Positions 19,327-35,381 of a stretch of DNA of 64,000 bases are shown here, in pieces. The notes below the pieces were generated by a model. It had not been told where the DNA came from. It saw only the letters and a list, made by a program, of their open reading frames with translations, and ran no database searches. How positions within the stretch are numbered: the first letter of the stretch is position 1; each line of letters opens with the position of its first letter. The stretch lies in the NCBI GenBank assembly GCA_964549685.1, contig CAZJVE010000004.1, forward strand, positions 7,700 through 71,699, in the 5' to 3' direction. The DNA is from an uncultured archaeon (GTDB taxonomy: Archaea > Altiarchaeota > Altiarchaeia > IMC4 > QMZM01). The translations under genes and the position numbers were made by a program.

Positions 19327-22300
19327 GTGGACCCCAGGATTTTATTTATGGGCTGCATGTTTTTTCTCATTCTAATCAGCTCTGCAGATGCAGCAATATA
19401 TAACTGCTCCAACTGTTCCAACTGCGAGTCAGCAATCTCAGATGCTTCGGCCGGGGACACGGTCAACCTTTTGGCTGATATAGCAAACCAGTCCTGGAAC
19501 TGCATCGTCTGGGACAACAGCAACGTAACATTCGACTGCCAGCAGCACGGTATAGATGGTACTGACACCCTCTACGGAATTGTCATGGAGTACGACAAAG
19601 GAAACGTCATAAAAAACTGTGTGATTACTGACTTCATGATGGGGATATACCTCTATTATTCCGACAACAACCAGATTGGCGATAATACTATAGAGTCAAA
19701 CACCGGCAATGGAATCAAGCTGAGTCATTCCGCTGGCAACCTGATATCCGGCAATACATTGAAATCAAACACGGAGGACGGGCTCTATGTCTTTGGTTCA
19801 GGGAGCCAGGACAACACCATTCTCAACAACCTCGCGAGCTCGAACAACTACAACGGAATCTACATCCGCGACTCCTCCAGCAATACCCTCACAAACAATA
19901 CTGCAAACTCCAACGACGACCACGGAATCCGCCTTCGCGAGTCCTTCAACAACACCCTCACAAGCAATACAGCAAACTCCAACACAATGGACGGAATCAG
20001 TTTGTATGATTCCTCCAACAACACCATTACAGGAAACACCGCAAACTCGAACAGCTATTATGGAATCTACATCGTCTATCCCTCGGGCAGCACGGTGAAC
20101 TCGAACGAGGCGTGCTATAACGATGTAGATGATATCCACCTCTATAACAGCGAGGATAACTCAGGAGATGAGAACACCTGCGACACGACCTATGAGTGGA
20201 ACGATGAAGGAGCTACTGGATGCACCAATGCCTGCGGGGCTGCAACATCGACCAGCAGCACATCTACATCAACCTCGACAAGCACGACACCAAGCACGAT
20301 AAATGTTACTACGTCTACATCCACATCGACCAGTACAATATCGACAACCAGCACTACCTCAACCTCGACAAGCACAAGCACAACAACCCTGCCCTTGGGG
20401 GAGACTACCTGCAGCAACTGCTCCGACTGCAGCAATAAACTGAACGGAAGCTACTCCACAGTCAGGCTTGATGCCGATATAACCGAACACAGCCACAACT
20501 GCATAGAATTCAATACAAATGGCACGGTGTTCGACTGCCAGGGCCATATCATTGATGGGAACTATACTTCCCTATCCGGCAGCGGAGTTTATATCTCAGA
20601 CAAGTCCTCCAACACAGTAAAGAACTGCATAATCACGGACTTCAACCGTGGAATCTACGTTTACTACTCGCCCAGCAATACTCTCATAAACAACTCCGTC
20701 TCGAGCAACATGTATGGCGTCCATCTCCACATGTCCAACTATAGCACTATCGACAGCAACACAGTGGAATCGAATCTGGATTTCGGCATTCTCCTGTCCT
20801 TTTCCAGCTACAGCTACATGGCGAATAACAGGTTTTGCTCACACGGAGTCCTGGATATATTCCTGGAATACGTTACAGGAAATTCCGGCGACGAGAACAC
20901 CTGCGACAGCCCCGGAGGATGGAACGATACGGGAACAACCTACTGCACATATGGCTGCAGTGCAGTAACGACAACAACAACATCAACAACCTCCACAACC
21001 ACAATCCAGCCCCAGGTAATGCTGGCGAGAATTCTCCCTGATGAGGCCCTTCCGGGCGAGAATCTAACGGTCACACTTAGTCTGGACGTAAACGAATCGA
21101 ACACCCCGAACAGCATCGGTATAACTGAAACACCGCCGGCCGGCTGGGAGATATTGGAGACGTCAATAGACGGCAACCTTCAGTCAGCACCCGGCTCGAT
21201 AGAGTGGCTTCTCTGGGACATGGGCACATCGGTGGAGGACATGAATATCACATACACCTTGCACGTGCCAGAGAATGCAAATGGAACCTATTACTTCAGT
21301 GGGGAGTTCATGTACTACCTGGGCGATACGCGCACGGATGACAACATATTCGGCGATGAGCTGATAATCGTCAATGGAACATCCGTCCTGAGGCCGCACC
21401 TTACGGTCTCAAGGGGCAACACAACAATAAACGAAAATTACATAGACCTCGAATTTATTGTAGAGAATGATGGCAATTCAACGGCAGAGAATATAAGCGT
21501 CTGGACCTGGCTTGCTGGGTTCATTCCTGCAAGGGAGACCACCTACAACTACAATTCCAGCAACTTCTCGTTGGAGAGCTATGGTTCTGCCGTAAAGCTC
21601 GTGCTGAACTCGCTGGGGTCTCAGACCTCCACCAGCATGCGCTTCACCGCAGTGCCTGTTCTTGCCGAGGATGATGTTGACTACGAGATTGATTCCACAG
21701 GCCATGTGGACGTAACCTACATTGACAGCGACGGGGTTGAATACTCCGAAACCTTCACGACATCTGCAAGCATCCAGGAGCAGGACGTCTACTCGGCAAT
21801 CTCGGCCTCGGACTACCTTATAGTTACGAACCCTTCAAGGCTCTACTCCTACTACTCCAATGCCGATGTCCATAGCCTTCTCCTGGTAATGAGCAAACTG
21901 GCAAGGGAGGAGAACGGCGTTCTCGGCTTTGTTACGAACTATTCGGCAGAGTCCCTGGAGAGACTGATAGACAACGGATGGAACGGCAGGATGAATTCCC
22001 AGTGGAGGGACGACGGATTCCTGCTCCTTGTCGGAGAGACCGAGATAATCCCGTCCTGGGACATCAGCTTCGATTGCGAGGGCAGCCTCCCCCTATCCCT
22101 GACGGCCACGAGCTCGGATAACGTCTATGCCGACATACTGGAGGGCGACTCCTATGCCCCCGAGCTGTATATCGGCAGAATCATAGGGAATTCCGCCAGC
22201 GACCTGGAGAATTCCATCACGAACTCAATCGACGCCTCTCTGCAGAGGGACAATGCGCTGATTGCCAGTGGAAGCGGAAACGGGTGGGAGAGCTTCCTCA

Positions 22301-24237
22301 ACAACGCAATCGAGGCTGTAGACATACTGAGCGACTGGTTCAGCACAACCCGGCTCTACATGGGCAACTACAGCACGGACGGGGAGAAATTCAACGAGTT
22401 CAGCAGTTATACGAGCGATGCCGACCTGATATTCTGGAGGGACCACGGCTCCGAGCAGTCCTGGGGCACCGGCTTCATCGATACGGACAATGCAGCCAGC
22501 CTGGACTTGAGCTCCCTTCCATTAGTCTTCTCATCCGCATGCCTCACCGGGCATTATCAAAATACCTACAGCCTGGCCGAGGCCTTCCTTGCCAATGGCG
22601 CTGGAGTATTCATCGGCTCGACCGAGGTCAGCTACCGCACATTCAACAACGAATTCTCCAAGACGTTCTTCAATGAGTTCATGCACTCTACTGAGCGGCC
22701 GGTGGGCAAGTCACTGCGGGAGGCAAAGAGGGAGTTCAGGTCTGCAGGAACCGGCTCCTGCCAGATGAAGGCCCTGCTTGGCTATACGATAAACGAATAC
22801 AACCTCTATGGCAATCCGAAGCTCGGCTCCAGTTCGATACAGCAATCAGAGCTGATAGGAATACAGACCGTGGAAGGGCCGCTCTCCTCCCTCAATGTCA
22901 CGGTTCCGGACTACACTGTAACTGAGATGTTCAGCGAGCACTGGGTCGAGATTCCCAGCGGCAACATGCTCCTCGAGCCGGGCAACTGGCAGATACCCTA
23001 CTACAGGACAGCCATATCCTATCCTGCGGGCTATAAGGTACAGGGCGTTTCCATACTGGAAAGGGACGGTCTTATGCAGGCTACCGGGTTGATCATCCCT
23101 GAAGTGAGCATGGAGACGGGTGGAATTCCAACGGATAAGAGCCATGGCGTATTGCCGCAGAACCCCGGCTTCTATCCCAGCTCCGACTTCAGTTGGGAGA
23201 CGGTCGAATACCTTAACGGTACAACTATCCTCGTCATCTCGATGTACCCGTTCTACTACGATGCCAATACGACTGAGGTTCAGTTCTACAAGAACTACTC
23301 CTTCGGAATAAGCTACAGTCTATCTTTTGTGACTATGGGCCGGGTGCAAACGGACAAGGAAAACTACCTGATTGGAGAGCAGGTCAGCATAAGCTTTGAC
23401 GCAAACAACACACAGATACCCATAAACGCCACCGTCAATGCAACGATAAGGTACTATGGCAACAACGAGATTGCAGACTCGATAGGCCCCCAGACAATCA
23501 GCGTGGATGCCGGCGTTACGGAGGGTCAGATATACTGGAATTCCACCGGCTTTGAGGCAGGGTATTATCTCGTCAGCGTGAAGCTGTCAGACCCCAACGG
23601 ATATGAGCTGGACTCAGCAACCGAGAGATTCAGACTTGGTTTAGTTTCCGGTGAGATGGCTGATTTCTCGGCGTCGCCCCAGAGAATACGGATAGGGGAG
23701 TACGCGAACATTTCGCTAATATTCGATAACATCGGCACAGAGAACATCTCCGGTTCAGCCGCAATAAAAATCTACAATTCAAGTAGCTCTCTAGTGGGGG
23801 AGTTCAACCACAGTTTCACCAACCTGAACCCCCTGGACGCAGTTGACTTCTCATTCATATTCACTCCTTCGGCTGTCGATACGTACAAGATAATCGGCTT
23901 CATCCTCTACGGGAGCGAATCCACAGAGCCGCAGGAGATTAACATGACTGTGGGGTGTGCCATGAGGGGAGATGCCCAACCCTGTGACTCCATAATCGAA
24001 GACCTGGAGTTCCTGCTTTACCTGGACCTATGGGGCCAGGACGAGGTGGAGAATTCCCAGGTTCTTGAATCTGTTGAAAACTGGATAGATTATGGTAGCT
24101 GTGAGATAGAGGGGGACACCCCGCCATGCGGCGCTGTAGAGCTGGCTGAGGTGATAGATTTTATAACTGAGTGGGATGCAGGAAGTGCAGATTTGGAGGA
24201 CGTAATCGATTTGATAAACGAATGGGTGCCGGAGTGA
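19327..24237 (+). CDS. Large (1636 aa) secreted protein: two beta-helix (PbH1/NosD-like) modules, Ser/Thr linkers, C25 (gingipain-like) cysteine peptidase domain, Ig-like domains and a C-terminal duplicated helical Cys module
   Basis: Signal peptide MGCMFFLILISSADA (ATG at 19348 is the likelier start). CSNCS..C caps and N..x.N repeat rungs at ~19390-20230 and ~20400-20960. C25-like catalytic dyad context: FWRDHGSEQSW (His codon 22444-22446) and VFSSACLTGHY (Cys codon 22540-22542), plus YADILEGD..PELYIGRI. Confidence 0.85.
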   Translation: MDPRILFMGCMFFLILISSADAAIYNCSNCSNCESAISDASAGDTVNLLADIANQSWNCIVWDNSNVTFDCQQHGIDGTDTLYGIVMEYDKGNVIKNCVITDFMMGIYLYYSDNNQIGDNTIESNTGNGIKLSHSAGNLISGNTLKSNTEDGLYVFGSGSQDNTILNNLASSNNYNGIYIRDSSSNTLTNNTANSNDDHGIRLRESFNNTLTSNTANSNTMDGISLYDSSNNTITGNTANSNSYYGIYIVYPSGSTVNSNEACYNDVDDIHLYNSEDNSGDENTCDTTYEWNDEGATGCTNACGAATSTSSTSTSTSTSTTPSTINVTTSTSTSTSTISTTSTTSTSTSTSTTTLPLGETTCSNCSDCSNKLNGSYSTVRLDADITEHSHNCIEFNTNGTVFDCQGHIIDGNYTSLSGSGVYISDKSSNTVKNCIITDFNRGIYVYYSPSNTLINNSVSSNMYGVHLHMSNYSTIDSNTVESNLDFGILLSFSSYSYMANNRFCSHGVLDIFLEYVTGNSGDENTCDSPGGWNDTGTTYCTYGCSAVTTTTTSTTSTTTIQPQVMLARILPDEALPGENLTVTLSLDVNESNTPNSIGITETPPAGWEILETSIDGNLQSAPGSIEWLLWDMGTSVEDMNITYTLHVPENANGTYYFSGEFMYYLGDTRTDDNIFGDELIIVNGTSVLRPHLTVSRGNTTINENYIDLEFIVENDGNSTAENISVWTWLAGFIPARETTYNYNSSNFSLESYGSAVKLVLNSLGSQTSTSMRFTAVPVLAEDDVDYEIDSTGHVDVTYIDSDGVEYSETFTTSASIQEQDVYSAISASDYLIVTNPSRLYSYYSNADVHSLLLVMSKLAREENGVLGFVTNYSAESLERLIDNGWNGRMNSQWRDDGFLLLVGETEIIPSWDISFDCEGSLPLSLTATSSDNVYADILEGDSYAPELYIGRIIGNSASDLENSITNSIDASLQRDNALIASGSGNGWESFLNNAIEAVDILSDWFSTTRLYMGNYSTDGEKFNEFSSYTSDADLIFWRDHGSEQSWGTGFIDTDNAASLDLSSLPLVFSSACLTGHYQNTYSLAEAFLANGAGVFIGSTEVSYRTFNNEFSKTFFNEFMHSTERPVGKSLREAKREFRSAGTGSCQMKALLGYTINEYNLYGNPKLGSSSIQQSELIGIQTVEGPLSSLNVTVPDYTVTEMFSEHWVEIPSGNMLLEPGNWQIPYYRTAISYPAGYKVQGVSILERDGLMQATGLIIPEVSMETGGIPTDKSHGVLPQNPGFYPSSDFSWETVEYLNGTTILVISMYPFYYDANTTEVQFYKNYSFGISYSLSFVTMGRVQTDKENYLIGEQVSISFDANNTQIPINATVNATIRYYGNNEIADSIGPQTISVDAGVTEGQIYWNSTGFEAGYYLVSVKLSDPNGYELDSATERFRLGLVSGEMADFSASPQRIRIGEYANISLIFDNIGTENISGSAAIKIYNSSSSLVGEFNHSFTNLNPLDAVDFSFIFTPSAVDTYKIIGFILYGSESTEPQEINMTVGCAMRGDAQPCDSIIEDLEFLLYLDLWGQDEVENSQVLESVENWIDYGSCEIEGDTPPCGAVELAEVIDFITEWDAGSADLEDVIDLINEWVPE

Positions 24238-24325: not shown

Positions 24326-27300
24326 ATGAATTCGAAATTCATAACTCTTGTTGCCGTTTTAATCCTTGTTTCCACCGCATACGGGCAGGAAACAACCCCC
24401 TATGCTGTTGTTGGTCGCGTCTATCAGCAGGATGGCGAAACACTCCAGGCCGATGCTGCCATCACCCTTATCTACCTACCGACCGGCGAGACCCTCACTC
24501 AGGATTCCTCGGCAAGCGGCGACTATCTCTTCGACATCTCGGACTTACCCGGCGGCTACGAGGTCGGGGAGCAGATACAGATTATTGCCGAATACAACAA
24601 TTCCGGGGCGAGCGTCATAGAGACGATAATCGAGGACGGCCCCATATTCGCCCAGAGCCTCGTTCTGGGCCCGCTGGCAGATAACGTCTCTGTCGTTCCG
24701 AACTATCTCCAGGGCGGCGAGACTGCCGAGGTTACTGTAATAAGCCTCGTCGTAAACGCTGTCGTCAATGCAACAATAGAGGGGGCAACGACCTTCCTTA
24801 CCCAGGGGGAGCTGGGCACATATTCTGGCTATATTACTGCCCCCGACGATGACGGCGTCTATGTAGTTGATATACTGATGGAAAGCCCCGAGGGCACAAC
24901 TGCACACTACCAGGAACTCCTGACGGTCGACAACCTCCCGCCCTCTCTCGTGATATACTATCCAACTAACGGCACCGCCACAACCAATCTGACAATACTG
25001 GTTGACGGAATTACTGAGCCGGATGCGACCGTAACCGTGGACGGAGTCGACGTGAACGTATCTGAACTGGGGAGATTCAACCACACTGTGACACTGGAAG
25101 CCGGCACCAACACCATCGTAGTTGATGCAGAGGACAGGGCAGGCAACATAAACCGGACGAGAGTTACCGTATTCCTCTACGCGCTCTACATCTCTGAGGT
25201 TTCGGCAGACTCGGTCCAGCTCGGCGAAGGGACCACAATCTACGCCGAGGTTATCTCAACCTTCGACATAGCCGGCGTAATAGCGCAGGTCCTCTCGCCT
25301 GACGGAACTACCCTGAACTATCCGATGGTTGAGGCCGACGGCGGCTATGATGTTGACATCCCGGAATATGACATCGCCCAGATAGGCGACTATAACGTAA
25401 CAGTAACTGCAACGGATGTAAACGGAAACACAACCAACGGAACCGGATGGTTCGAGGTTTACGGCACGAGAAGGTTCTACGGAGATGTCCTGGATTCCGA
25501 GAGCAATCCCGTTTCCACCACATTCAGTCTCTACAGGCCCGGAACCGAATACCTCATCCATGAATTCATAACCGACGTCTTTGGTGAATATGATGTAACG
25601 ATTCACAGCAGGAATTACGACCCAATGCTTGAATTCTCGGACATGGAATTCAAGCTGAACAACATAAACTTCACCCCGCTCCATGACGACCCCATAGACG
25701 TAGACCTCCTGGAAGGCAATGAAGTCTATATTGCCACTACCGAACCCATCAAGGGCTTTGCGGTCGATACAAACATCACAGCGACCGGCATTGTGGAGAT
25801 TACCTACTCGCAACTGGAAATAAGCAACGAGGAGCTGATTGAGATTTATGGGTGCAACGACTGGGACTTTGGGAACAAGACATGCAGGGGCTTATGGACG
25901 GCCCTTGACAGCCAGGTGGACAAGTTCGCAAACACCGTAACAGCGGCAATAAGCAAGCCGCTGGAGTCAACCGCCTATATGGCTGTGGAGGCCTCAAAGT
26001 GCGGCGACGGGGAATGCATACTGGAATATGGGGAAACCTGCAGCACCTGTCCGATTGACTGTGGCACCTGTCCCACGGGAGGGGGAGCGACAGACGTTTC
26101 CGGGATAGAGGCAACACTTCTCATCCTGATAGAAAAGATAACCATTCTCGAGGAGAGACTTAATCTCACTCAGGAGCAGATAAACATAAACCTCGAAAGC
26201 CGGGAAGTGACAGAGTATCTGAGGGGCGCGATATACAACCAGACGCAGGACATGGCCCTCCTTCTTCTCGCGAAAAAGGTCGAGCTGGTTTCCGGCTACC
26301 AGGTCGTTTCGGCTGAATTATACCCTGGCGAGTTTACAAAAACGTCCATAAGAATCAAGAACCCGTCCAACAAGAGCACAACAATGGCCGTGAATATATC
26401 CGGAAAGGTCGTGGACTTCATAAGCTTCGAAGAAGAAGCAGTGGAGTTAACGCCCGGCGAGGAATCTGACCTCATAATAAACACCTTCATTCCCGAGGGA
26501 ACGACTGCCGGCAACTACTATGGTGAGTTAACCTTAACCATCGCAGATATAGCCTCGAATATACCTGTAAATATAAGGGTCCTCGAGAGGAGGGAGAGAC
26601 TTCTTGACCTCAAGATTAACCCCCTTACGGACGTTATTGCCCCCGGAAGAACCCTCCGGGTTGATGTCAGTCTTTACAATCTTGGAACCAAGGATGTCAA
26701 TGTCGAATTCCTGCTCCAGCTTGTAGATTCCATAACTAACGACATAGTCGTCGAGAAATCGGAGAACATATCCATAGCTGCGGGGGCAAGCATCCCCCGG
26801 ATAGAGGACCTCAATATTTCCGAGGGCGTCAGGGAAGGAAAATACATAGTGAAAGGCATAGCCCGTTATCAAGGAGAGGGAGAGAGGGAGGTCGTTTCCA
26901 TATCCTATGTTGACGTTAGTAAGTCATTCTTTGAGTTGCAAATCTTTGGCATACCGGTCTGGATAATCCTGCTTGTTTTCTTCATCGTAACTCTGAGCTA
27001 TGTAGCATTCCTCCTCTACAAGAGGGAGCAGTCGAGAAAGAAACGTTATCTCGAGCTGGTTGAACTCAGGAGCCTGCCACAGCCTGGACCGCGCTCAGGA
27101 GTCATCGGCAAACTGGCGGAGACCGCAATAAGGGCATTTATGCCGGTAGACCGGCTGCAGATGCATACTCTTATCGCAGGGGCAACCGGTTGTGGAAAGA
27201 CAGTTGCTGCCCAGGTTCTGGTTGAGGAAGCACTCCTGAAAGAAGCCGCGGTCCTCGTTTTCGACCCAACTGCCCAGTGGAGCGGATTCCTGAGAGCGAA

Positions 27301-28711
27301 CAAGGACGCGGGAATGTTCCGTCTCTATCCAGCATTCAAGATGAAGGACAGCGACGCGAGGGTCTTCAACGGCAACGTCTACACGATAACGGAACCCGGC
27401 CAGAGGATAGAAGTAGGAAAGCACATCAAACCTGGAGAGATTTCCGTGTTCTGCCTACATAAACTCGACCCCTCCCAGATTGATTCGATAGTCGAGAATA
27501 CGGTAAGGGAGGTCTTCCTTGCGAACCTTGAGGAGACACCAAAGCTAAGGGCCCTCTTCGTGTATGACGAGGTCCACCGCCTGCTGCCAAAATTCGGTGG
27601 CTCAGGAAAGGGTTTCACCCAGGTCGAGAGGGCAGTCAGGGAATTCAGAAAGTGGGGCATAGGTCTTGTTCTGATTTCGCAGGTTTTGTCGGACTTCGTG
27701 GGAGAGATTAAGGCAAACATAGGTACAGAGGTTCAGATGAGGTCCCGCTATGAGGGCGACCTAGAAAGGATTAAGATGAAGTACGGCGAAGACATCCTGC
27801 GCTCAGTTGTGAAGTCAGCTGTCGGAACCGGTATGGTGCAGAACGCGGAGTACAACAAAGGAAGGCCATACTTCGTCAGCTTTAGACCCCTGCTCCATAA
27901 TCCCCACAGACTTTCCGACGAAGAGCTTGACAACTATGACAAGTTCAACAAGGAGATAACCAAACTCAGGGATAAACTGGAAATTCTCAAGAAGGGTGGA
28001 ATTGACGTATTCGACCTGGAACTGGAGCTGAATCTGGCACTGGACAATGTGAAGAAGGGCTCATTTGACGTGGTCAAGATGTATCTGGAATCCCTGGGCC
28101 CAAGGATAGAGGACGAATTCTCCAAGATGGGCACCGGGGAGAGGGAGAAGGCCGAGGCCAAGGCAAAAGAGGAGGAAGAGAGTGCAAGAAGGGATGCTGA
28201 GAAAGATGCAAAGCACGGGGAGATGCTTGAGGGCCTTAAGGAGAGAAGGGAAGAGAGAAACGAGAAGTGGGAGCGCCTAAAGACGGAAAAGCCCGAGGAA
28301 AAGCCATCTCCTGAGAAAAAGGAACTGAGCTCCGATGAGAAAAAGGCGGGTGAGAGGGTAAGGGAGATAATACGCCGTGGCAGGGGGGGCGCTGAGGGGA
28401 AAAGAGCGCCGTCCAGACGCCCCCTAGGGGAAAAGCCAGCCGAGAAACCACCTGAAAAGCCACCGGCTCCTCCAGCAGGGGAAAAGCCACCAGAGAAACC
28501 ACCTGAGAGACCACCAGCTCCTCCAGCCAAGGAAAAGCCCGCTGGAGAGGACGAGGAGCTGAAGAATATGCGCAAGGAGGTGGAGGAGCTGAAGGAGCTT
28601 CAGGAAGAGCTAAAGAAGTCTGGAGGCAAGATAACCCCTGAGATGAGGAAGAAGATAGAGGAGAAACTGAGGGCGAAGAGGGAAAGGGAGAAGAAATCGT
28701 CAGGCACATAA
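24326..28711 (+). CDS. Single-pass membrane protein (1461 aa): large Ig-like/CARDB-like ectodomain, TM helix, cytoplasmic HerA/FtsK-superfamily (DUF87-like) P-loop ATPase, coiled coil, Pro/Glu/Lys-rich tail
   Basis: Signal peptide FITLVAVLILVSTAYGQE. Cys knot KCGDGECILEYGETCSTCPIDCGTCP at ~25997-26085. TM segment at ~26949-27015 is followed by YKREQSRKKR. Walker A GATGCGKT at 27179-27202. Walker B LFVYDE at 27554-27571. WGIGLVLISQ...VG.IKANIGTEVQMR is typical of HerA/VirB4-like ATPases. EKPPEKPPAPPAGEKPPEKPPERPPAPPAKEKP at ~28430-28540. Confidence 0.85.
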   Translation: MNSKFITLVAVLILVSTAYGQETTPYAVVGRVYQQDGETLQADAAITLIYLPTGETLTQDSSASGDYLFDISDLPGGYEVGEQIQIIAEYNNSGASVIETIIEDGPIFAQSLVLGPLADNVSVVPNYLQGGETAEVTVISLVVNAVVNATIEGATTFLTQGELGTYSGYITAPDDDGVYVVDILMESPEGTTAHYQELLTVDNLPPSLVIYYPTNGTATTNLTILVDGITEPDATVTVDGVDVNVSELGRFNHTVTLEAGTNTIVVDAEDRAGNINRTRVTVFLYALYISEVSADSVQLGEGTTIYAEVISTFDIAGVIAQVLSPDGTTLNYPMVEADGGYDVDIPEYDIAQIGDYNVTVTATDVNGNTTNGTGWFEVYGTRRFYGDVLDSESNPVSTTFSLYRPGTEYLIHEFITDVFGEYDVTIHSRNYDPMLEFSDMEFKLNNINFTPLHDDPIDVDLLEGNEVYIATTEPIKGFAVDTNITATGIVEITYSQLEISNEELIEIYGCNDWDFGNKTCRGLWTALDSQVDKFANTVTAAISKPLESTAYMAVEASKCGDGECILEYGETCSTCPIDCGTCPTGGGATDVSGIEATLLILIEKITILEERLNLTQEQININLESREVTEYLRGAIYNQTQDMALLLLAKKVELVSGYQVVSAELYPGEFTKTSIRIKNPSNKSTTMAVNISGKVVDFISFEEEAVELTPGEESDLIINTFIPEGTTAGNYYGELTLTIADIASNIPVNIRVLERRERLLDLKINPLTDVIAPGRTLRVDVSLYNLGTKDVNVEFLLQLVDSITNDIVVEKSENISIAAGASIPRIEDLNISEGVREGKYIVKGIARYQGEGEREVVSISYVDVSKSFFELQIFGIPVWIILLVFFIVTLSYVAFLLYKREQSRKKRYLELVELRSLPQPGPRSGVIGKLAETAIRAFMPVDRLQMHTLIAGATGCGKTVAAQVLVEEALLKEAAVLVFDPTAQWSGFLRANKDAGMFRLYPAFKMKDSDARVFNGNVYTITEPGQRIEVGKHIKPGEISVFCLHKLDPSQIDSIVENTVREVFLANLEETPKLRALFVYDEVHRLLPKFGGSGKGFTQVERAVREFRKWGIGLVLISQVLSDFVGEIKANIGTEVQMRSRYEGDLERIKMKYGEDILRSVVKSAVGTGMVQNAEYNKGRPYFVSFRPLLHNPHRLSDEELDNYDKFNKEITKLRDKLEILKKGGIDVFDLELELNLALDNVKKGSFDVVKMYLESLGPRIEDEFSKMGTGEREKAEAKAKEEEESARRDAEKDAKHGEMLEGLKERREERNEKWERLKTEKPEEKPSPEKKELSSDEKKAGERVREIIRRGRGGAEGKRAPSRRPLGEKPAEKPPEKPPAPPAGEKPPEKPPERPPAPPAKEKPAGEDEELKNMRKEVEELKELQEELKKSGGKITPEMRKKIEEKLRAKREREKKSSGT

Positions 28712-28798
28712 AAGCACCCGTCTCAAATCTACACTTTTTATCGTCTATTCTTAATATATTTCTATCTTATAGTATCATCCATTCTGTCCCCTTCCAAG

Positions 28799-29650
28799 AT
28801 GATAAACCCCTTGCGCAAACTACTCAAAAAACTCGGTCTGGGCGCTCTTGCAACCAGGGAGAAACCCGCTGAGGAAGTTAAGGGTGCAAAGAAGAACAGG
28901 ATAATAGCGGTTGCGAACCAGAAAGGCGGCGTGGGGAAAACAACGACTGCTATTAACCTTGCGGCCTATCTCGCCATGATGGAGAACAAGGTCCTTCTCA
29001 TAGATATAGACCCCCAGGCCAACAGCACCATCGGACTCGGGATAGAGAAGGACAGCATATCCGATTCGATAGCCGATATACTCACCGACAAGGCAAAGGT
29101 AAAGGACGTAATTCTCCCGACAAAGGTTAAGGGACTTAGCATTATTCCTGCAAGCGTCCATCTGGCCGATGCCGAGATAAAACTGGTCGGGATGAATTTC
29201 CGCGAGACAATCCTGAAGAATTCCATTAATAACCTGACGAGGAACTACGATTTCGTCCTGGTAGACTGCCCTCCCTCCCTCGGTCTTTTGGCCCTGAATG
29301 CATTAACGGCAGCAGATTCGGTCGTAATCCCTGTCCAGTGCGAGTATTTTGCTCTGGAAGGCCTGAACGAATTCATGAATGTCGTAAGCCTGATACAGGA
29401 GAGGGTAAACCCCGGGCTTGAGATAGACGGCATACTCCTTACGATGTACCAAAAGGATACAAAGCACGTGAATGAAATTCTCAAAGACATCCGGAAACTG
29501 TTCGGCGGGAACATCTATGCAACAGTCATCCCCCGGGATGAGAAATTCCCCGAGTCCTCAAGTTTCGGGAAACCCATCGGAGTCTATGATAAGAAGTCCG
29601 ACGGGGCCAAAGCGTATGAAGAATTAGCCCATGAATTTTTGGGTCAATAA
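28799..29650 (+). CDS. ParA/Soj/MinD-family ATPase with a basic N-terminal extension
   Basis: Deviant Walker A KGGVGKTT at 28922-28945. IAVANQKGGVGKTTTAINLAAYLA, DIDPQANST and VLVDCPPSLG are classic ParA/Soj motifs. An extra ~33-aa N-terminus reads MINPLRKLLKKLGLGALATREKPAEEVKGAKK. Confidence 0.9.
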   Translation: MINPLRKLLKKLGLGALATREKPAEEVKGAKKNRIIAVANQKGGVGKTTTAINLAAYLAMMENKVLLIDIDPQANSTIGLGIEKDSISDSIADILTDKAKVKDVILPTKVKGLSIIPASVHLADAEIKLVGMNFRETILKNSINNLTRNYDFVLVDCPPSLGLLALNALTAADSVVIPVQCEYFALEGLNEFMNVVSLIQERVNPGLEIDGILLTMYQKDTKHVNEILKDIRKLFGGNIYATVIPRDEKFPESSSFGKPIGVYDKKSDGAKAYEELAHEFLGQ

Positions 29651-29652
29651 AA

Positions 29653-32115
29653 ATGGCAAAGAAATCAAAATCTAAAGACTTAGAAGCGCTGATACCTGCT
29701 TCCAGAGCTAAGAAAACAAAAAAAGTCAAGGAGTCCGAAGTAAAGGATTACGGAAAAGTCGCTGACATTTTGGATATGACAAAGGACTATCTTGCAGAGG
29801 TAGAGACGGAAAAGCAGAAAGTAGGGGCGGAGATGAGGAAAATAATGAAGGAAAGAGGGGAACTGAGAGATGAATGGAAGAACATAAAAGAAACCAGGGA
29901 GGAGGTAGAAAAAGCCAAGGAAGATCTGGAGAATGTTCTGAAGACAAAGGCCAAGAAAGTGGCAAAGGCCCTGCCAAAGGCCGTGGCAAAAAGTCAGGCA
30001 TTGAGCACGCTTATTCCTGTAACTGGCCCCAAAGAAGGCAAAGGACCAAAGGGCGATGCTGGAAGCCTTCTGGGATTGGCCAAGACGTACCTTGCAGAGG
30101 TTGAGAAGGAAACCCGTGAGATAGAGGTCATGAGGGGGGAGGTGGAGAAGGAGGCTGCCAAGGTCGAAAAGGAGTGGGATAAAATACAGAAATCACGGGA
30201 AGATATAGAAAAGCTCTTAGAGAAGAAGGAGCAGGACGAGAAGGAGATAGACCGGCGCAGGATTGAGGTCGAGAAGGAATTCGCCAAGATAGCCAACGAA
30301 TGGGAGAAGATAGAGGGGATTCAAAATGATACGGATTCCCACCGCGACAAGCTCGACCAGGAATTCATCAAGGTTGGGAAGGAATGGACTGAAATCAGGA
30401 AGAACAAGGCTCACCTGGAGAAGGAGCTCCAGAAGAAGAACCTCGACATGGACGAGGTTGACAGGCAGAGGTCAGAAATCGACGGGGGCCTGAAAAAGAT
30501 AGGCCACGAGTGGGGCAAGCTGGAGGAGACGAGGAATTCTATAGAGAAGCAATCAACCGAGCTGGATAGGGAATTCGGCAAGCTCAAGGAGGAATGGAGC
30601 AATCTCAGGAAAAGCCAGGCTGAACTGAGCGAGGCAATGAAGAAGAGCGAGGTCGACCAGGAGAAGATAGCTCATCAGAGAGAGATAATCACGGAGGAGA
30701 TGAAGAAGATAAACGGAGAATGGAGCAAGATAGACGAGGCTAGGAAAGAGATGGAAGAGCACCGAACCAGCATTGCCCATGACTTGAAGAAGATAGATGA
30801 AGGCAAGGCGGAGCTTGAGGAGTACATGAAGAACAGAGAGGCCAGTAACAAGGAACTCGAAGAACAAAAATCCTCCCTAAAATCCGAACTCTCAAAAATC
30901 ACCGAAGAATGGTCGCAATTGCGCGAGAATCAGGCAAAGCTGGAAGAAACCCTCAGCAGCACTTCCGAATTCAACAAGAACGTTGAGGAGCAGAAGAGGC
31001 ACATAGAAAAAGAGCTGAGGAAGATAGACGACGAGTGGAGGAAGATAGACGAGATTAACAAGAGAAGAGAAATCGACAAGAGGGCAATCGAGCAGCAGAA
31101 TAAGGAGATAGAGGCCGGGCTGAGGAAGATGGGCGAGGAATGGAGCAGCATAGAGGAGCACAAGAAGAAGATTGAGGATGACCGGAAGACCGTTGACCTG
31201 GATCTGGCCAAGGTAAGAATAGAATGGGACAAGCTGAAGGACGGAGAGAAAGAGTTCGATGAGAGAATGGCCCAAATCGAGGAGGAAGACAGAAAGAGGG
31301 GTTCCGAGAGGGACGAACTCGTCAAGCTCAGAAGGAAAATCGACGAAGACCTTGGCAGGATAAAGCTGGAGTGGGACAGGATAGAACTGACACAGAAGGA
31401 CATACAAAGGGAAAGGGACGACATGACCGAGGAATTAAACAAGATAGAGTCCGAGTGGCAGAAGATTCAATCTGCAGAGGAGGACCTCAGCATAGAACTC
31501 GGCAAAGGAAAGATAGACCGGCAGATGGTAGAGAACATTATGAAGAAGATAGACCGGGAGTTCAAGAAGGTACACAAGGACCTGGCCAAGGCCAAGAAGG
31601 ACAAAACCAGGATAGACAAGCAGAGAAAGGCCATCACTGGCGAACTGAAGAAGATTGCCGAGATATGTGAAGGGGTCGCAGAGGAGGGCGAGAAGGCCAT
31701 AAAAAGAATTCCCAGGGAGATAAAGATTCCGCTACAACCAAGCAGGGATATGGAGCTTCTTGAAAAAGAGAGGGGCAAGCTAAAGGCCGAGTGGGACAGG
31801 ATAGAGTCCGAGTGGGACAAGCTGGAGAGCGTCCTCTACGAGTCCGGCGTTGAGGAGATGATGCATGACGTGAAGCTCAAGCAGGCGGGGCTTGAGAAGG
31901 AGAAGAAGGAGATTCTTGCAAAGGAGGAGAGACTAAAGTCGTTCATCGAGGAGGACGAGTTCGAGATAGAGAAGAAAAAGAAGGAGCTTGAGCTACTGCT
32001 TCTGGAGGACGAAAAGAGGCTCAGGGAGAGGGAGAAGGAGTTGCTAAAGGAAGAAAAAAAGCTCAGGGGCAAATACTCGGACATGAGGCAACTCTTCAAA
32101 AAAGGAACAAGGTGA
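29653..32115 (+). CDS. 820-aa Glu/Lys-rich coiled-coil protein with a periodic [E/D]EW..[IL] motif; basic N-terminal tail
   Basis: Its start is 2 nt after the ParA stop. The N-terminus is MAKKSKSKDLEALIPASRAKKTKKVK. At least 13 occurrences of xEW(D/E/S/T/G/R/Q)x(I/L) recur at irregular intervals of roughly 25-65 aa. A duplicated K[DT]YLAEVE[TK]E segment is present. I saw no TM segment and no enzyme motifs. Confidence 0.8.
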   Translation: MAKKSKSKDLEALIPASRAKKTKKVKESEVKDYGKVADILDMTKDYLAEVETEKQKVGAEMRKIMKERGELRDEWKNIKETREEVEKAKEDLENVLKTKAKKVAKALPKAVAKSQALSTLIPVTGPKEGKGPKGDAGSLLGLAKTYLAEVEKETREIEVMRGEVEKEAAKVEKEWDKIQKSREDIEKLLEKKEQDEKEIDRRRIEVEKEFAKIANEWEKIEGIQNDTDSHRDKLDQEFIKVGKEWTEIRKNKAHLEKELQKKNLDMDEVDRQRSEIDGGLKKIGHEWGKLEETRNSIEKQSTELDREFGKLKEEWSNLRKSQAELSEAMKKSEVDQEKIAHQREIITEEMKKINGEWSKIDEARKEMEEHRTSIAHDLKKIDEGKAELEEYMKNREASNKELEEQKSSLKSELSKITEEWSQLRENQAKLEETLSSTSEFNKNVEEQKRHIEKELRKIDDEWRKIDEINKRREIDKRAIEQQNKEIEAGLRKMGEEWSSIEEHKKKIEDDRKTVDLDLAKVRIEWDKLKDGEKEFDERMAQIEEEDRKRGSERDELVKLRRKIDEDLGRIKLEWDRIELTQKDIQRERDDMTEELNKIESEWQKIQSAEEDLSIELGKGKIDRQMVENIMKKIDREFKKVHKDLAKAKKDKTRIDKQRKAITGELKKIAEICEGVAEEGEKAIKRIPREIKIPLQPSRDMELLEKERGKLKAEWDRIESEWDKLESVLYESGVEEMMHDVKLKQAGLEKEKKEILAKEERLKSFIEEDEFEIEKKKKELELLLLEDEKRLREREKELLKEEKKLRGKYSDMRQLFKKGTR

Positions 32116-32116
32116 G

Positions 32117-32359
32117 ATGGTCGAAGAACTGAAGAAAAAAATCGATGAGACGAAGGCAGAGGTCCAGGAGAGCTGGAGGCGAATCGATGAGCTCGGGAAG
32201 GGAACACCGCAATCACTGCCAAAGCCCAAGGAGCAAAAGAAGCTCGAGGACAAGAGCAACGTAAGCCCGCTGAAGAGGGCGATGACAAAGGTGGGCCTCA
32301 AGAAAGACGGAGATAAGGAAGGCGGCGACTGGACCAGGGTGAAGAGTAACATTGACTGA
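32117..32359 (+). CDS. 80-aa Lys-rich protein carrying one more E-W repeat unit (ESWRRIDE)
   Basis: The ATG is 1 nt after the TGA of the upstream gene, in a different frame. The sequence MVEELKKKIDETKAEVQESWRRIDELGKG resembles the repeat unit of the 820-aa protein. Confidence 0.55.
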   Translation: MVEELKKKIDETKAEVQESWRRIDELGKGTPQSLPKPKEQKKLEDKSNVSPLKRAMTKVGLKKDGDKEGGDWTRVKSNID

Positions 32360-34421: not shown

Positions 34422-35381
34422 ATGTCGAAGGAGTTATGGGTGAGGGCAGACGGCACCGATTCCTGGGAGGAGAGAAAAGAACTCGTAAAGACGGCGCTGG
34501 AGAGCGGAGCCCAGGCAGTTCTTGTTAATGCAGGCGAGGAGAAGCTTGTAAGGGAACTGGGAAAGATAAAGGTAGTTTCAGATGGGGGAGATTCAGACAT
34601 ATTTCTTACTAATGATATTAAAAAAATAAAAAAATCCACTGCGTTCTACTGTGAGATTAAGAGCAAGGAGGACGAGCGCCTCATAGCCGAGGCGGGCAAA
34701 GCCGCGGCTTATGTCATAATCAATGCCAAGGACTGGAAGGTCATTCCCCTCGAGAACCTGATTGCCGAGCTGAAGGGCAAGTGCAGTATTCTGGCCGAGG
34801 CAGGCACAGAAAACGAGGCCCGCCTGGCCCTGGAAACCCTTGAGATAGGCACCGATGGAGTTCTTGCCAGCGCAGATTTCCAGGAAGTCAGGAAGATAAA
34901 GAACCTCATAGACTCCCTTTCGGCTGAGAAGCTGCAGCTGAGGACAGTGAAGGTCACTGCCGCTGAGCCGTCGGGAGAGCACGACAGCGCGTCCATCGAC
35001 ACCTGCTCAATCCTTAACCTCGGCGAAGGCCTTCTGGCAGATAACATCCTAGTCCACTCAGACACGGAGAAAATCCCCTGGATGGAACCGACGCCGTTCA
35101 GGATAAATTTAGGTATTAATTCGAAAATTAAAATTCCTGATGGAATTAAATCAGTGAAGGAATTAAAGCCAGGAGACGAAATTCTTTCTGCTAATTTCGA
35201 GGGCAGGACACGGAGGCTCGTAGTCAATGAAATAATCTCCTCAAAGAAGAAGATGCTGAAGGTCAGCGCCGATAAATCCGAGCTAGTTATCCCAGACGAC
35301 TCGGCCCTTGTTGGAAGAAAAGGGAAAAAGATTCCCGCCGGAAAACTGAAGCCCGGAGATGAGATATCTATTTCTCAATAA
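34422..35381 (+). CDS. 3-dehydroquinate synthase II-like protein (archaeal shikimate pathway) with a degenerate C-terminal half
   Basis: The N-terminal half (KELWVRADG..W..RKELVKTALESGAQAVLV) fits DHQS-II. The C-terminal half keeps IDTCSILNLGEGLL but has TPFRINLGINS where RPFRVNAG is expected, and it lacks the terminal GRHFGM..EETI.E motif. Confidence 0.65.
   Translation: MSKELWVRADGTDSWEERKELVKTALESGAQAVLVNAGEEKLVRELGKIKVVSDGGDSDIFLTNDIKKIKKSTAFYCEIKSKEDERLIAEAGKAAAYVIINAKDWKVIPLENLIAELKGKCSILAEAGTENEARLALETLEIGTDGVLASADFQEVRKIKNLIDSLSAEKLQLRTVKVTAAEPSGEHDSASIDTCSILNLGEGLLADNILVHSDTEKIPWMEPTPFRINLGINSKIKIPDGIKSVKELKPGDEILSANFEGRTRRLVVNEIISSKKKMLKVSADKSELVIPDDSALVGRKGKKIPAGKLKPGDEISISQ

What the first reader, a model, noticed from the sequence alone, without database searches (positions are those of the whole stretch)
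24326..32359. Four co-directional genes: ectodomain-anchored HerA/FtsK-type ATPase, ParA, an E-W repeat coiled-coil giant and a mini-repeat protein
**Seen in sequence.**
- The 1461-aa protein has a signal peptide and ~870 aa of Ig/CARDB-like ectodomain with a CGDGxC...DCGxCP cysteine knot.
- It has one TM helix with a positive-inside flank, then a cytoplasmic P-loop ATPase with HerA/VirB4/FtsK-type Walker A/B motifs and the ...LISQ... region.
- It ends in a coiled coil and an EKPPEKPPAPP low-complexity tail.
- 88 nt downstream lies a ParA/MinD ATPase, coupled (2-nt gap) to an 820-aa coiled-coil protein with a Lys-rich N-terminal tail, then (1-nt gap) an 80-aa Lys-rich protein.

**Known background.**
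- Membrane-bound HerA/VirB4-like ATPases drive DNA or protein translocation, for example CedB in crenarchaeal DNA import, VirB4 and FtsK.
- ParA-type ATPases position cargo through partner proteins that carry basic N-terminal peptides and coiled coils, such as ParB and McdB-like adaptors.

**Inference.**
- This may be an undescribed envelope-spanning machine. A translocase ATPase would be wired directly to an extracellular adhesin-like domain, and a dedicated ParA/adaptor pair would set its position or number.
- I know of no characterised system with this domain fusion.
Basis: partly seen in the sequence, partly recalled or inferred. Interest (0 to 1): 0.75.

Follow-up and report, generated by a model that had tools for sequence, protein, structure and literature searches.

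The report
SPEARE-type surface ATPase beside ParA module
The large gene belongs to an already described family of archaeal surface proteins with an internal motor domain; the three genes after it look like a previously undescribed ParA positioning module, but their link to the large gene is only weakly supported.

Summary

**Gene 1 (24326-28711)** is not an undescribed fusion.
- It is an Altiarchaeota member of the DPANN-wide 'SPEARE' family of giant membrane-anchored surface proteins (Hamm 2019; re-annotated by Reva 2023).
- Its layout is signal peptide, Ig-like ectodomain, one TM helix, cytoplasmic HerA/FtsK-superfamily ATPase, then a coiled-coil and low-complexity tail.
- The ATPase is 59% identical to that of RLG14629.1, a protein listed in the SPEARE paper. 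I confirmed 586 related stretches in species-representative genomes.

**Genes 2-4 (28799-32359)** form a separate, tightly coupled triad.
- The first is a bacterial Soj-type ParA with an added N-terminal amphipathic helix.
- The second is an 820-aa coiled coil with Trp locked to the heptad register. It sits where ParB normally sits, and its N-terminus (MAKKSKSKDLEALIP) resembles the ParB peptide that stimulates ParA.
- The third is an 80-aa protein that carries one such motif.

**Distribution of the triad.**
- It is rare and occurs in a few Altiarchaeota-like genomes.
- It lies near a SPEARE gene in two different gene orders.
- It is absent from 78 of 80 family loci, most of which carry an unrelated coiled-coil gene ('cc54') instead.

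A dedicated positioning role for the triad is therefore possible but weakly supported.

The parts
24326..28711 (+). SPEARE-family gene (1461 aa): signal peptide, ectodomain, TM helix, HerA/FtsK-type ATPase and tail
   Evidence: ORF. The ATPase has 463 homologs at 45-72% identity across DPANN and 586 confirmed genomic stretches. L014 equals RLG14629.1, a protein listed as a SPEARE match.
24326..24385 (+). Predicted Sec-type signal peptide (aa 1-20)
   Evidence: Read from the sequence MNSKFITLVAVLILVSTAYG/Q. This is an inference; no predictor was run.
25193..26125 (+). Family-conserved ectodomain block 1 (aa ~290-600), including the Cys-rich CGDGEC...CPIDCGTCP motif
   Evidence: phmmer coverage in about 38 loci. 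Cys positions 510-582.
26303..26920 (+). Membrane-proximal tandem Ig/FnIII-like beta-sandwiches (aa ~661-864), the most conserved ectodomain block
   Evidence: Covered in about 48 loci. AlphaFold pLDDT 90.2. Foldseek matches RbmA and WxLIP tandem beta-sandwiches at E 3e-10.
26921..27025 (+). Single transmembrane helix (aa 866-900) with a basic cytoplasmic flank
   Evidence: It is the only 19-aa window with Kyte-Doolittle score above 1.6. It is helical in both models.
27098..28111 (+). Cytoplasmic HerA/FtsK-superfamily ATPase plus C-terminal helical domain (aa ~925-1262)
   Evidence: Pfam DUF87, HerA_C and TrwB_AAD_bind. PDB sequence hits to HerA proteins. The model's best Foldseek hit is S. 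solfataricus HerA 4d2i at E 4.6e-13, followed by FtsK, TcpA and EccC. Walker A at aa 952 and Walker B at aa 1077.
28112..28708 (+). Charged, Pro/Lys/Glu-rich cytoplasmic tail with short helical segments (aa 1263-1461)
   Evidence: Sequence. Conserved in L001 and L081.
28712..28798 (+). 87-nt spacer with a T5 run after the stop codon and an AT-rich TATA-like box (ttaatatatt) about 45 nt before the ParA ATG
   Evidence: Sequence. Reading this as a separate transcription unit is an inference.
28799..29650 (+). Soj-type ParA ATPase (283 aa) with a clade-specific N-terminal cationic amphipathic helix (aa 2-14)
   Evidence: Pfam AAA_31 at E 2e-67. PDB ParA/Soj 8ray at E 1e-72, HpSoj and TtSoj. About 53% identical to bacterial chromosomal Soj. 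Hydrophobic moment 0.7-0.8.
29653..32115 (+). 820-aa E-W coiled-coil protein: ParB-like N-terminal peptide, 15 heptad-locked Trp motifs and a conserved C-terminal ~110 aa
   Evidence: Trp spacing. N- and C-terminal conservation. The repeat HMM is specific to this family. ParB N-peptide comparison.
29653..29700 (+). N-terminal peptide MAKKSKSKDLEALIPA, a candidate ParA-stimulating motif
   Evidence: 67 of 77 ParBs next to Soj homologs start M-x-K-K-..-LG[RK]GL-x-AL[ILF]. Coiled-coil N-termini rank 5-18 of 1561 on a ParB-peptide PSSM, far below true ParBs.
32117..32359 (+). 80-aa protein with one E-x-W motif, a Lys-rich middle and a conserved GGDWTRVKSNID end
   Evidence: Conserved and translationally coupled in L001, L081, L084 and L089; a 123-aa version occurs in L027.

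Best explanation
The region holds two units.

**Unit 1, gene 24326-28711: a mid-sized Altiarchaeota member of the SPEARE family.**
- Shown: it has an exported Ig-like adhesin ectodomain with a family-conserved membrane-proximal core.
- Shown: one TM helix is followed by a cytoplasmic HerA/FtsK-superfamily ATPase.
- Inferred: the ATPase forms a hexameric ring under the membrane, as its structural relatives do.
- Inferred: it uses ATP to move a polymer at sites where the ectodomain holds another surface. I slightly favour DNA over protein as that polymer.
- Inferred: because it has only one TM helix per subunit, it probably needs a partner channel.

**Unit 2, genes 28799-32359: a ParA positioning module in which a coiled coil has replaced ParB.**
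- Shown: the ParA is a bacterial Soj type with an extra N-terminal amphipathic helix.
- Shown: the 820-aa protein occupies the ParB position.
- Suggestive: its N-terminus, MAKKSKSKDLEALIP, resembles the ParB peptide.
- Inferred: this peptide stimulates ParA ATP hydrolysis. The coiled coil would then be a scaffold that is positioned by a ParA gradient, as PomX or McdB are. The 80-aa one-repeat protein would act as a cap or regulator.

**Link between the units.** It is possible but unproven that the scaffold places or spaces the SPEARE complexes. I put that at about 0.3.
For: **Membership of the SPEARE family.**
- The ATPase is 59% identical to that of L014, which is RLG14629.1, a protein named in the SPEARE paper.
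- The architecture matches the description by Reva et al..

**ATPase fold.** HerA, FtsK and TcpA structures are the best matches, consistent with the sequence hits.

**Family-wide pattern.** The gene product ranges from 402 to more than 4000 aa with a constant cytoplasmic part.

**ParA type.**
- PDB Soj and ParA matches.
- A bacterial homolog sits in a dnaA-dnaN-yidC-parA-parB context.
- 77 of 79 bacterial homolog loci carry ParB.

**Triad conserved with tight coupling.** Seen in L001, L081, L084, L089, L091, L085+L027 and L087.

**Coiled-coil protein.**
- N-peptide similarity to ParB.
- The literature says the ParB N-terminal peptide binds ParA and stimulates its ATPase (PMC7333895).
- Trp residues are heptad-locked.

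**Link to SPEARE.**
- The triad lies downstream of the SPEARE gene in the window clade.
- It lies upstream in L085+L027, as ParA, coiled coil, mini protein, TM protein, KaiC-like, SPEARE. These two contigs join by an exact 127-nt overlap.
- In a rough neighbour-joining tree these SPEARE ATPases fall in one small subclade.
Against: **Link between the units.**
- The triad is absent from 78 of 80 family loci.
- It stands without a SPEARE gene within 5.8 kb upstream in L088-L090.
- The T-run and TATA-like box in the 87-nt spacer suggest separate transcription.
- Synteny among close relatives also includes the unrelated ribB, ribH and DHQS genes, so it may be simple inheritance.

**ParB-like peptide.**
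- It scores only 2-6 bits on a ParB-peptide PSSM, against 27-46 bits for real ParBs.
- It finds nothing in NCBIfam or the PDB.

**E-W motif in the SPEARE tails.** The E-W-like motifs there are not significant against the repeat profile.

**Function of the ATPase.**
- No substrate, channel partner or hexamer was shown.
- The window organism carries biosynthetic genes, so the host-parasitism rationale proposed for SPEARE proteins may not apply.
Confidence: 0.6

Rival explanations
1. All four genes encode one integrated envelope-spanning machine, and the ParA/coiled-coil pair exists to set the position or number of the membrane ATPase.
For: - The genes are co-directional and adjacent.
- The four-gene block is kept in L001, L081, L084 and L091.
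- The triad is again within three genes of a SPEARE-subfamily gene, in a different order, in L085+L027.
- The ParA has an extra cationic amphipathic N-terminal helix that could bring it to the membrane.
Against: - The triad is absent from 78 of 80 family loci, which mostly carry the unrelated cc54 gene instead.
- It is detached from any SPEARE gene in L088-L090.
- The spacer looks like a terminator followed by a promoter.
- No shared motif reached significance.
Confidence: 0.27
2. The ParA triad is a chromosome-segregation or division-site system. It would be a horizontally acquired Soj whose ParB was replaced by a scaffold, and it would have no functional tie to the surface ATPase. Adjacency would be inherited synteny.
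For: - The ParA is closest to bacterial chromosomal Soj, at about 53% identity.
- Three of the four basic residues that I recall as DNA-binding in HpSoj align with R/K here (alignment; the residue list is from memory).
- The triad occurs without SPEARE nearby in L088-L090.
- Housekeeping genes downstream are equally syntenic.
Against: - No DNA-binding domain or ParB fold is found in the 820-aa or 80-aa proteins.
- The extra N-terminal amphipathic helix is not a feature of the chromosomal Soj proteins seen here.
- Proximity to a SPEARE gene survived a rearrangement in a lineage with only 51% ParA identity.
Confidence: 0.35
3. The ATPase gene is an anti-phage HerA-type defence component.
For: PADLOC hits to mad8 (E 9e-15) and to several HerA models. 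Foldseek matches SIR2-HerA and DUF4297-HerA complexes.
Against: - The hits are at superfamily level and partial.
- No Sir2, DUF4297, nuclease or methylase partner lies in the window.
- The protein is membrane-anchored with a large ectodomain.
- It is near-universal in DPANN and 50-70% conserved, which is unlike patchy defence genes.
Confidence: 0.03
4. The ectodomain and ATPase are separate genes fused by an assembly or frameshift error.
For: In L003 the equivalent gene is split into a 532-aa ectodomain ORF and a 443-aa ATPase ORF.
Against: The continuous fused ORF is found independently in L001, L081 and many other loci from different assemblies, and in published nanohaloarchaeal genomes.
Confidence: 0.01

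Closest known systems
SPEARE proteins, also called giant membrane-anchored extracellular proteins, of Nanohaloarchaeota (Hamm et al. 2019, PMC6642349; Reva et al. 2023, PMC10266531)
   Same: The layout is the same: signal peptide, Ig-like adhesion ectodomain, one TM helix near the C-terminus, a conserved cytoplasmic P-loop ATPase and a terminal coiled coil. The ATPase is 59% identical to that of the listed SPEARE match RLG14629.1. Homologs in Altiarchaeales were already noted.
   Different: This protein is only 1461 aa, against 3000-9400 aa. No laminin-G, protease or toxin-like domains were detected. The organism appears biosynthetically competent. Here the gene is followed by a ParA triad, not by the cc54 gene seen in the nanohaloarchaeal loci fetched here (L014, L024, L035, L044) or by the second ATPase that Reva et al. 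report.
HerA/FtsK-superfamily membrane-associated translocases (HerA, FtsK/SpoIIIE, the type IV coupling proteins TrwB and TcpA, EccC, CedB)
   Same: It shares the RecA-like P-loop fold with Walker A and B motifs. The best structural match is the HerA hexameric DNA translocase. As in coupling proteins and FtsK, an N-terminal membrane anchor precedes the motor.
   Different: It has no HAS barrel and no NurA partner. It lacks the FtsK gamma domain, the VirB4 N-terminal domain and neighbouring type IV secretion genes. It has only one TM helix per subunit, and the part outside the cell is a large adhesin.
Bacterial chromosomal ParA-ParB (Soj-Spo0J)
   Same: The ParA is Soj-type (E 1e-72 to a solved ParA). 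The downstream gene is translationally coupled and begins with a Lys-rich GL-E/D-AL-IP peptide that resembles the ParB N-terminus.
   Different: The partner has no ParB/Srx, HTH or dimerisation domains and is an 820-aa coiled coil. The ParA carries an extra N-terminal amphipathic helix. The host is an archaeon.
ParA/MinD systems with non-ParB scaffold partners (PomXYZ of Myxococcus, McdAB of carboxysomes); comparison from my own knowledge
   Same: In both, a ParA-type ATPase works with a coiled-coil partner whose N-terminal basic peptide is thought to activate the ATPase, so the partner or its cargo is positioned rather than DNA segregated.
   Different: There is no sequence homology to PomX, PomY or McdB. 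The cargo is unknown. The repeat architecture, with Trp locked to the heptads, is specific to this small family.

Membership tests
SPEARE / giant membrane-anchored surface protein family | Conserved intracellular domain homologous to that of published SPEARE proteins | tested here: met
   The window ATPase matches L014 at 59% identity over aa 8-402 of the query. The L014 protein is RLG14629.1, which Hamm et al. list as a SPEARE match.
SPEARE / giant membrane-anchored surface protein family | Most of the length lies outside the cytoplasm, with a single TM helix towards the C-terminus and a cytoplasmic C-terminal region | tested here: met
   One hydrophobic segment at aa 866-900, preceded by about 845 aa after a signal-like N-terminus. 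The TM helix appears in both models.
SPEARE / giant membrane-anchored surface protein family | Adhesion-type (Ig-like) ectodomain | tested here: met
   Pfam Glucodextran_B plus weak Big_13 and Big_6 hits. The tandem beta-sandwich model matches RbmA and WxLIP.
SPEARE / giant membrane-anchored surface protein family | At least one laminin-G domain (Hamm et al.) | tested here: not met
   No Laminin_G family was found at E <= 0.01 in Pfam. Reva et al. dispute several of the original domain calls.
SPEARE / giant membrane-anchored surface protein family | Giant size (thousands of residues) | tested here: not met
   The protein is 1461 aa. However, Hamm et al. include 655- and 717-aa versions, and family members here range from 402 to more than 4000 aa.
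HerA/FtsK superfamily ATPase | Walker A and B motifs and the RecA-like fold of the superfamily | tested here: met
   GATGCGKT and LFVYDE motifs. DUF87 and HerA_C are above the Pfam cut-offs. Foldseek matches HerA 4d2i at E 4.6e-13, then FtsK, TcpA and EccC.
HerA/FtsK superfamily ATPase | Hexameric ring with a central pore | not testable with these tools
   Only monomer prediction is available.
HerA proper (HerA-NurA end-resection helicase) | N-terminal HAS barrel, NurA partner and a full-length match to HerA equivalog models | tested here: not met
   NCBIfam HerA models score 15-30 bits against cut-offs of 800-970. A TM helix directly precedes the ATPase. No NurA was found among the window ORFs scanned.
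Type IV secretion ATPases (VirB4, VirD4/TraG) | VirB4 N-terminal domain (PF03135) or a full coupling-protein match, with neighbouring type IV secretion genes | tested here: not met
   Only P-loop-region hits were found: TrwB_AAD_bind at aa 939-985, and TraD and TraC far below cut-off. No type IV secretion genes were found in the window. No VirB4 structure was among the top 50 fold matches.
ParA/Soj (chromosomal type) | Deviant Walker A KGGxGK[ST] and close similarity to Soj | tested here: met
   NQKGGVGKTT motif. AAA_31 at E 2e-67. PDB ParA 8ray at E 1e-72, HpSoj at 1.6e-61 and TtSoj at 2.5e-53.
ParABS system | ParB partner with ParB_N, HTH and C-terminal domains next to ParA | tested here: not met
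   77 of 79 bacterial homolog loci have ParB, but the archaeal loci do not. The downstream 820-aa protein has no ParB domains.
ParB-type ParA-stimulating N-terminal peptide | M-x-K-K-..-LG[RK]GL-x-AL[ILF] at the extreme N-terminus | tested here: inconclusive
   The coiled-coil N-termini share KK...GL[ED]ALIP and rank 5-18 of 1561 ORF N-termini. They score 2-6 bits against 27-46 bits for real ParBs, and they lack the LG[RK]G half. No NCBIfam or PDB hit was found.

The most novel reading that the evidence does not exclude
In one Altiarchaeota-like lineage, a Soj-type ParA acquired from bacteria has been rewired. A heptad-locked E-W coiled coil carrying a ParB-mimic peptide replaces ParB. With the 80-aa protein it forms a cytoplasmic scaffold that the ParA distributes along the membrane or nucleoid, and this sets the position or number of the SPEARE translocase-adhesin complexes. 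That would be the first ParA-positioned envelope-spanning surface machine in archaea.
Probability: 0.25. Interest if true: 0.75.

Novelty: new variant of a known kind. Interest (0 to 1): 0.45.

Why it matters
**SPEARE family.**
- SPEARE-type proteins are the most conspicuous and most conserved surface machines of DPANN archaea, and their function is still unknown.
- A mid-sized member in an apparently free-living Altiarchaeote suggests the family is not only a parasitism tool.
- A conserved coiled-coil partner gene (cc54) lies within the flanks fetched in 45 of 63 loci that have at least 2.5 kb of downstream DNA. In 41 of them it starts within 2 kb downstream on the same strand.
- Together these give smaller, more tractable targets for biochemistry.

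**ParA triad.**
- It would be a clean natural example of ParB being replaced by a scaffold that keeps only the ParA-activating peptide.
- That bears on how ParA systems acquire new cargo and on bacteria-to-archaea transfer of cell-organisation modules.

**If the triad positions the SPEARE complex**, it would link cytoplasmic patterning to cell-surface contact machinery.

Tried and rejected
- **Word-indexed homolog search with the 820-aa protein.** No hit at E <= 0.001, probably because low-complexity candidates saturated the index.
- **Exhaustive search of 1.84 billion representative proteins.** It found one real relative, a 97-aa fragment of the C-terminal domain, plus unrelated coiled coils.
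- **Metagenome scan with the coiled-coil C-terminal alignment.** 600 pattern matches, none real.
- **Metagenome scan with ParA.** One more close relative (L091); the other 79 loci were bacterial Soj loci.
- **Is the 820-aa protein a divergent cc54?** A cc54 HMM against the window gave E = 6 with heavy compositional bias, so I rejected homology.
- **Do the SPEARE tails carry true E-W repeats?**
  - The local motifs looked similar: NEKWERLK in the window and EWRKMD in L027.
  - Neither the repeat HMM nor a PSSM supports this. The best tail windows score at or below -7.5, against a median of 27.8 for real repeats.
  - I kept it as a hint only.
- **ParB-like peptide against NCBIfam and the PDB.** Nothing found.
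- **Defence-system reading.** Only superfamily-level HerA and mad8 hits, and no effector partner.
- **The 'type III restriction enzyme' label from the SPEARE paper.** Pfam ResIII scores E 6e-4, below cut-off, over the P-loop region. The listed fold matches are HerA-, FtsK- and coupling-protein-type ATPases, with no restriction enzyme among them. This agrees with Reva et al..
- **Literature searches for DPANN+DUF87 and Altiarchaeota+ParA.** No prior description of the triad turned up.


Full report
**Observation.**
- The four co-directional ORFs are at 24326-28711 (1461 aa), 28799-29650 (283 aa), 29653-32115 (820 aa) and 32117-32359 (80 aa), with gaps of 87, 2 and 1 nt.
  - a signal-like N-terminus;
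  - the Cys-rich KCGDGEC...CPIDCGTCP block at aa 558-583;
  - a single hydrophobic segment at aa 866-900 followed by KREQSRKKRY;
  - Walker A GATGCGKT (aa 952), Walker B LFVYDE (aa 1077) and LISQ (aa 1116);
  - a charged tail with EKPPEKPP repeats.
- The window is archaeal (type II 3-dehydroquinate synthase).
- Its nearest relative among species-representative genomes is an Altiarchaeota MAG, L001 (WALD01000043.1), with 91% identity in the ATPase.

**Gene 1: what it is.**
- Pfam finds DUF87/HerA and HerA_C above cut-off. It gives only sub-threshold P-loop hits to TrwB, FtsK, AAA_10 and ResIII.
- NCBIfam and PDB sequence searches give partial HerA-type matches.
- An AlphaFold model of aa 861-1262, built on 18 homologs, has pLDDT 90.6.
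  - Its best structural match is the S. solfataricus HerA hexameric DNA translocase (E 4.6e-13).
  - SIR2-HerA, HerA-NurA, the coupling protein TcpA, FtsK and EccC follow.
- A model of aa 640-905 (pLDDT 90.2) shows two tandem Ig/FnIII-like beta-sandwiches leading into the TM helix.

**Gene 1: it belongs to a large, already described family.**
- The TM+ATPase part has 463 homologs at 45-72% identity in Altiarchaeota, Woese-, Pace-, Nano-, Aenigm- and Micrarchaeota.
- Across 80 fetched loci the cytoplasmic part is constant. The ORF ranges from 402 aa to more than 4000 aa, and 34 ORFs run off the 10-kb flank or the contig end.
- Two ectodomain blocks are family-conserved: aa ~290-600 and aa ~650-860.
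- This is the architecture published as 'SPEARE' proteins of Nanohaloarchaeota:
  - they are mostly extracytoplasmic, with a C-proximal TM helix and a conserved intracellular domain;
  - similar sequences were noted in Woese-, Aenigm- and Micrarchaeota and in Altiarchaeales (PMC6642349).
- One protein listed there, RLG14629.1, is exactly the L014 protein. Its ATPase is 59% identical to the window's.
- Reva et al. (PMC10266531) had already corrected the 'restriction enzyme' label.
  - They call the domain a VirB4/TraG-like ATPase followed by a coiled coil.
  - They proposed a secretion 'straw'.
- My fold search places the domain nearer HerA than VirB4.
- I found no VirB4 N-domain and no type IV secretion genes.
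- 'HerA/FtsK-superfamily' is therefore the safer label.
- Gene 1 is a new, mid-sized member of a known but functionally uncharacterised family. The claim that the fusion is undescribed does not hold.

**What normally accompanies the family.**
- I clustered the neighbours in the 80 loci.
- A ~340-aa coiled-coil protein, here called cc54, is the main conserved neighbour.
  - Its N-terminus reads MGLFxKKKK and its core motif is ERHADKVETIF.
  - It occurs in 54 loci, and in 45 of the 63 loci with at least 2.5 kb downstream.
  - It starts within 2 kb downstream on the same strand in 41 loci.
  - It has no Pfam, NCBIfam or PDB match.
- KaiC-like ATPases, a small V4R-like protein, a small TM protein and upstream giant secreted proteins also recur.
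- The window itself has three giant secreted proteins upstream, of 1329, 4424 and 1636 aa.
- The window has no convincing cc54, and the cc54 HMM does not match the 820-aa protein (E = 6).

**Genes 2-4: the ParA.**
- The ParA is a Soj-type chromosomal ParA.
  - It matches a solved ParA at E 1e-72, and also H. pylori and T. thermophilus Soj.
  - It is about 53% identical to bacterial Soj proteins. One of these sits in a dnaA-dnaN-yidC-parA-parB context.
- Close orthologs (72-98% identity) exist only on a handful of Altiarchaeota contigs, after which identity drops to the bacterial level. This suggests horizontal acquisition.
- The archaeal clade adds about 30 N-terminal residues that begin with a conserved cationic amphipathic helix, MINPLRKLLKKLGLG.
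  - Its hydrophobic moment is 0.7-0.8, reached by 1-10% of shuffles.
  - The helix might bind membrane or a partner; that is an inference.

**Genes 2-4: the partner.**
- In 77 of 79 bacterial homolog loci a ParB is present. In the archaeal loci the ParB position is taken by the coiled-coil gene.
- The coiled-coil N-terminus resembles the ParB N-terminus.
  - Coiled-coil examples: MAKKSKSKDLEALIP, MARKSKSKGLETLIP and MGKKISDMGLDALIP.
  - ParB examples: MAKKTGLGKGLDALF and KKALGRGLEALIP. 67 of 77 ParBs here carry this motif, and T. thermophilus Spo0J has LGRGLEALLP.
  - That ParB peptide binds ParA and stimulates its ATPase (PMC7333895).
- The resemblance is partial.
  - On a ParB-peptide PSSM the coiled-coil N-termini rank 5-18 of 1561 ORF N-termini.
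  - They score only 2-6 bits, against 27-46 bits for true ParBs.
  - They find nothing in NCBIfam or the PDB.
- The body of the protein has 15 Trp residues, with all spacings multiples of 7. It is a long coiled coil with Trp at a fixed heptad position.
- A repeat HMM is specific to this family.
- The C-terminal ~110 aa and the 80-aa protein are conserved.
- The family is almost absent from 1.84 billion representative proteins.

**Is the triad tied to gene 1?**

In favour:
- The block SPEARE, ParA, coiled coil, mini protein is kept in L001, L081, L084 and L091, at 78-98% ParA identity.
- A more distant genome has 51% ParA identity and 57% ATPase identity.
  - Contigs L085 and L027 join by an exact 127-nt (41-aa) overlap inside the coiled-coil gene.
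  - The joined order is ParA, coiled coil (~549 aa), mini protein (123 aa), TM protein, KaiC-like, SPEARE-like (1151 aa).
  - The triad is thus upstream rather than downstream.
- In a rough neighbour-joining tree these ATPases share a small subclade with L002.

Against:
- 78 of 80 family loci lack the triad, including the closer L002, L003 and L004.
- In L088-L090 the triad follows IS elements, with no SPEARE gene in 5.8 kb.
- The 87-nt spacer has a T5 run and a TATA-like box.
- The unrelated riboflavin genes are just as syntenic.
- The apparent E-W motifs in the SPEARE tails are not significant.

I put the probability of a direct functional link at about 0.3.

**Mechanism.**

Shown:
- domain identities and membrane topology;
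- family membership;
- ParA type;
- conservation and tight coupling of the triad.

Inferred for the SPEARE protein:
- It forms a hexameric motor under the membrane, as HerA, FtsK and coupling proteins do.
- It moves DNA or protein at contact sites made by its ectodomain.
- With one TM helix per subunit it likely needs a channel partner.

Inferred for the triad:
- The coiled coil acts as a ParA-stimulating scaffold, in the manner of PomX or McdB (comparison from my own knowledge).
- It is positioned by a ParA gradient on the nucleoid or membrane.

The main rival for the triad is a chromosome-segregation or division role unrelated to SPEARE (0.35). The defence and assembly-artefact readings are disfavoured.

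**Verdict.**
- Gene 1 is a new member of a known kind.
- The ParA triad with a ParB-mimic coiled coil appears undescribed. I found no prior report in the searches I ran. It is a new variant of ParA systems.
- Overall interest is moderate.

Noticed in passing
L004-L080 (for example L014:6384-7427, L052:2085-3101): A ~340-aa coiled-coil protein ('cc54') is present in 45 of the 63 SPEARE-family loci that have at least 2.5 kb of downstream DNA, and in 41 loci it starts within 2 kb downstream of the SPEARE gene on the same strand. Its N-terminus reads MGLFxKKKK and its core motif is ERHADKVETIF. It has no Pfam, NCBIfam or PDB match and looks like an unrecognised conserved partner of the family.
   Followed up: partly
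window 21-4010, 4695-17969, 19327-24237 (+): Three giant secreted proteins lie directly upstream of the SPEARE-like gene. They are 1329, 4424 and 1636 aa and carry CARDB, CarboxypepD_reg, lamin-tail and NosD/beta-helix domains. This island is absent upstream in the close relative L001. Similar giant genes precede SPEARE genes in 23 other loci.
   Followed up: partly
window 35368-35916 (-) and 34422-35381 (+); also L084:7698-8315: A 182-aa ORF matches only the C-terminal half of type II 3-dehydroquinate synthase (E 7e-82). It lies convergent to a full-length copy and is conserved in a relative. It follows a 289-aa ORF (35920-36789, -) whose only family matches are weak coiled-coil-type hits.
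   Followed up: no
L005:4110-5193, L064:5588-6677, L002:6760-7473, L027:1734-3329: A single-domain KaiC-like ATPase recurs next to SPEARE-family genes in Altiarchaeales-type loci. In L005 and L064 it follows a 134-136-aa protein (the L005 copy is V4R/MsvR-C-like); in L027 it follows a 288-aa membrane protein.
   Followed up: partly
L003:2952-7127: In another Altiarchaeota genome the SPEARE-like ATPase gene overlaps the start of a different 1391-aa Glu/Ser/Lys-rich coiled-coil gene that has two beta-rich inserts. Different lineages therefore place different long coiled coils after this gene.
   Followed up: no
L050:4347-5141: A Woesearchaeota locus has a distant ParA/MinD-like ATPase (264 aa, E 6e-16 to the window ParA) directly after cc54, downstream of its SPEARE-family gene.
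   Followed up: no
window 51704-53765 and 55753-56331 (+): Two TadC/T2SSF-like genes and a pilin-like ORF with a class III signal-peptide-like start (MKFPRGKGQGALEYL) suggest a type IV pilus-like locus about 20 kb downstream.
   Followed up: no
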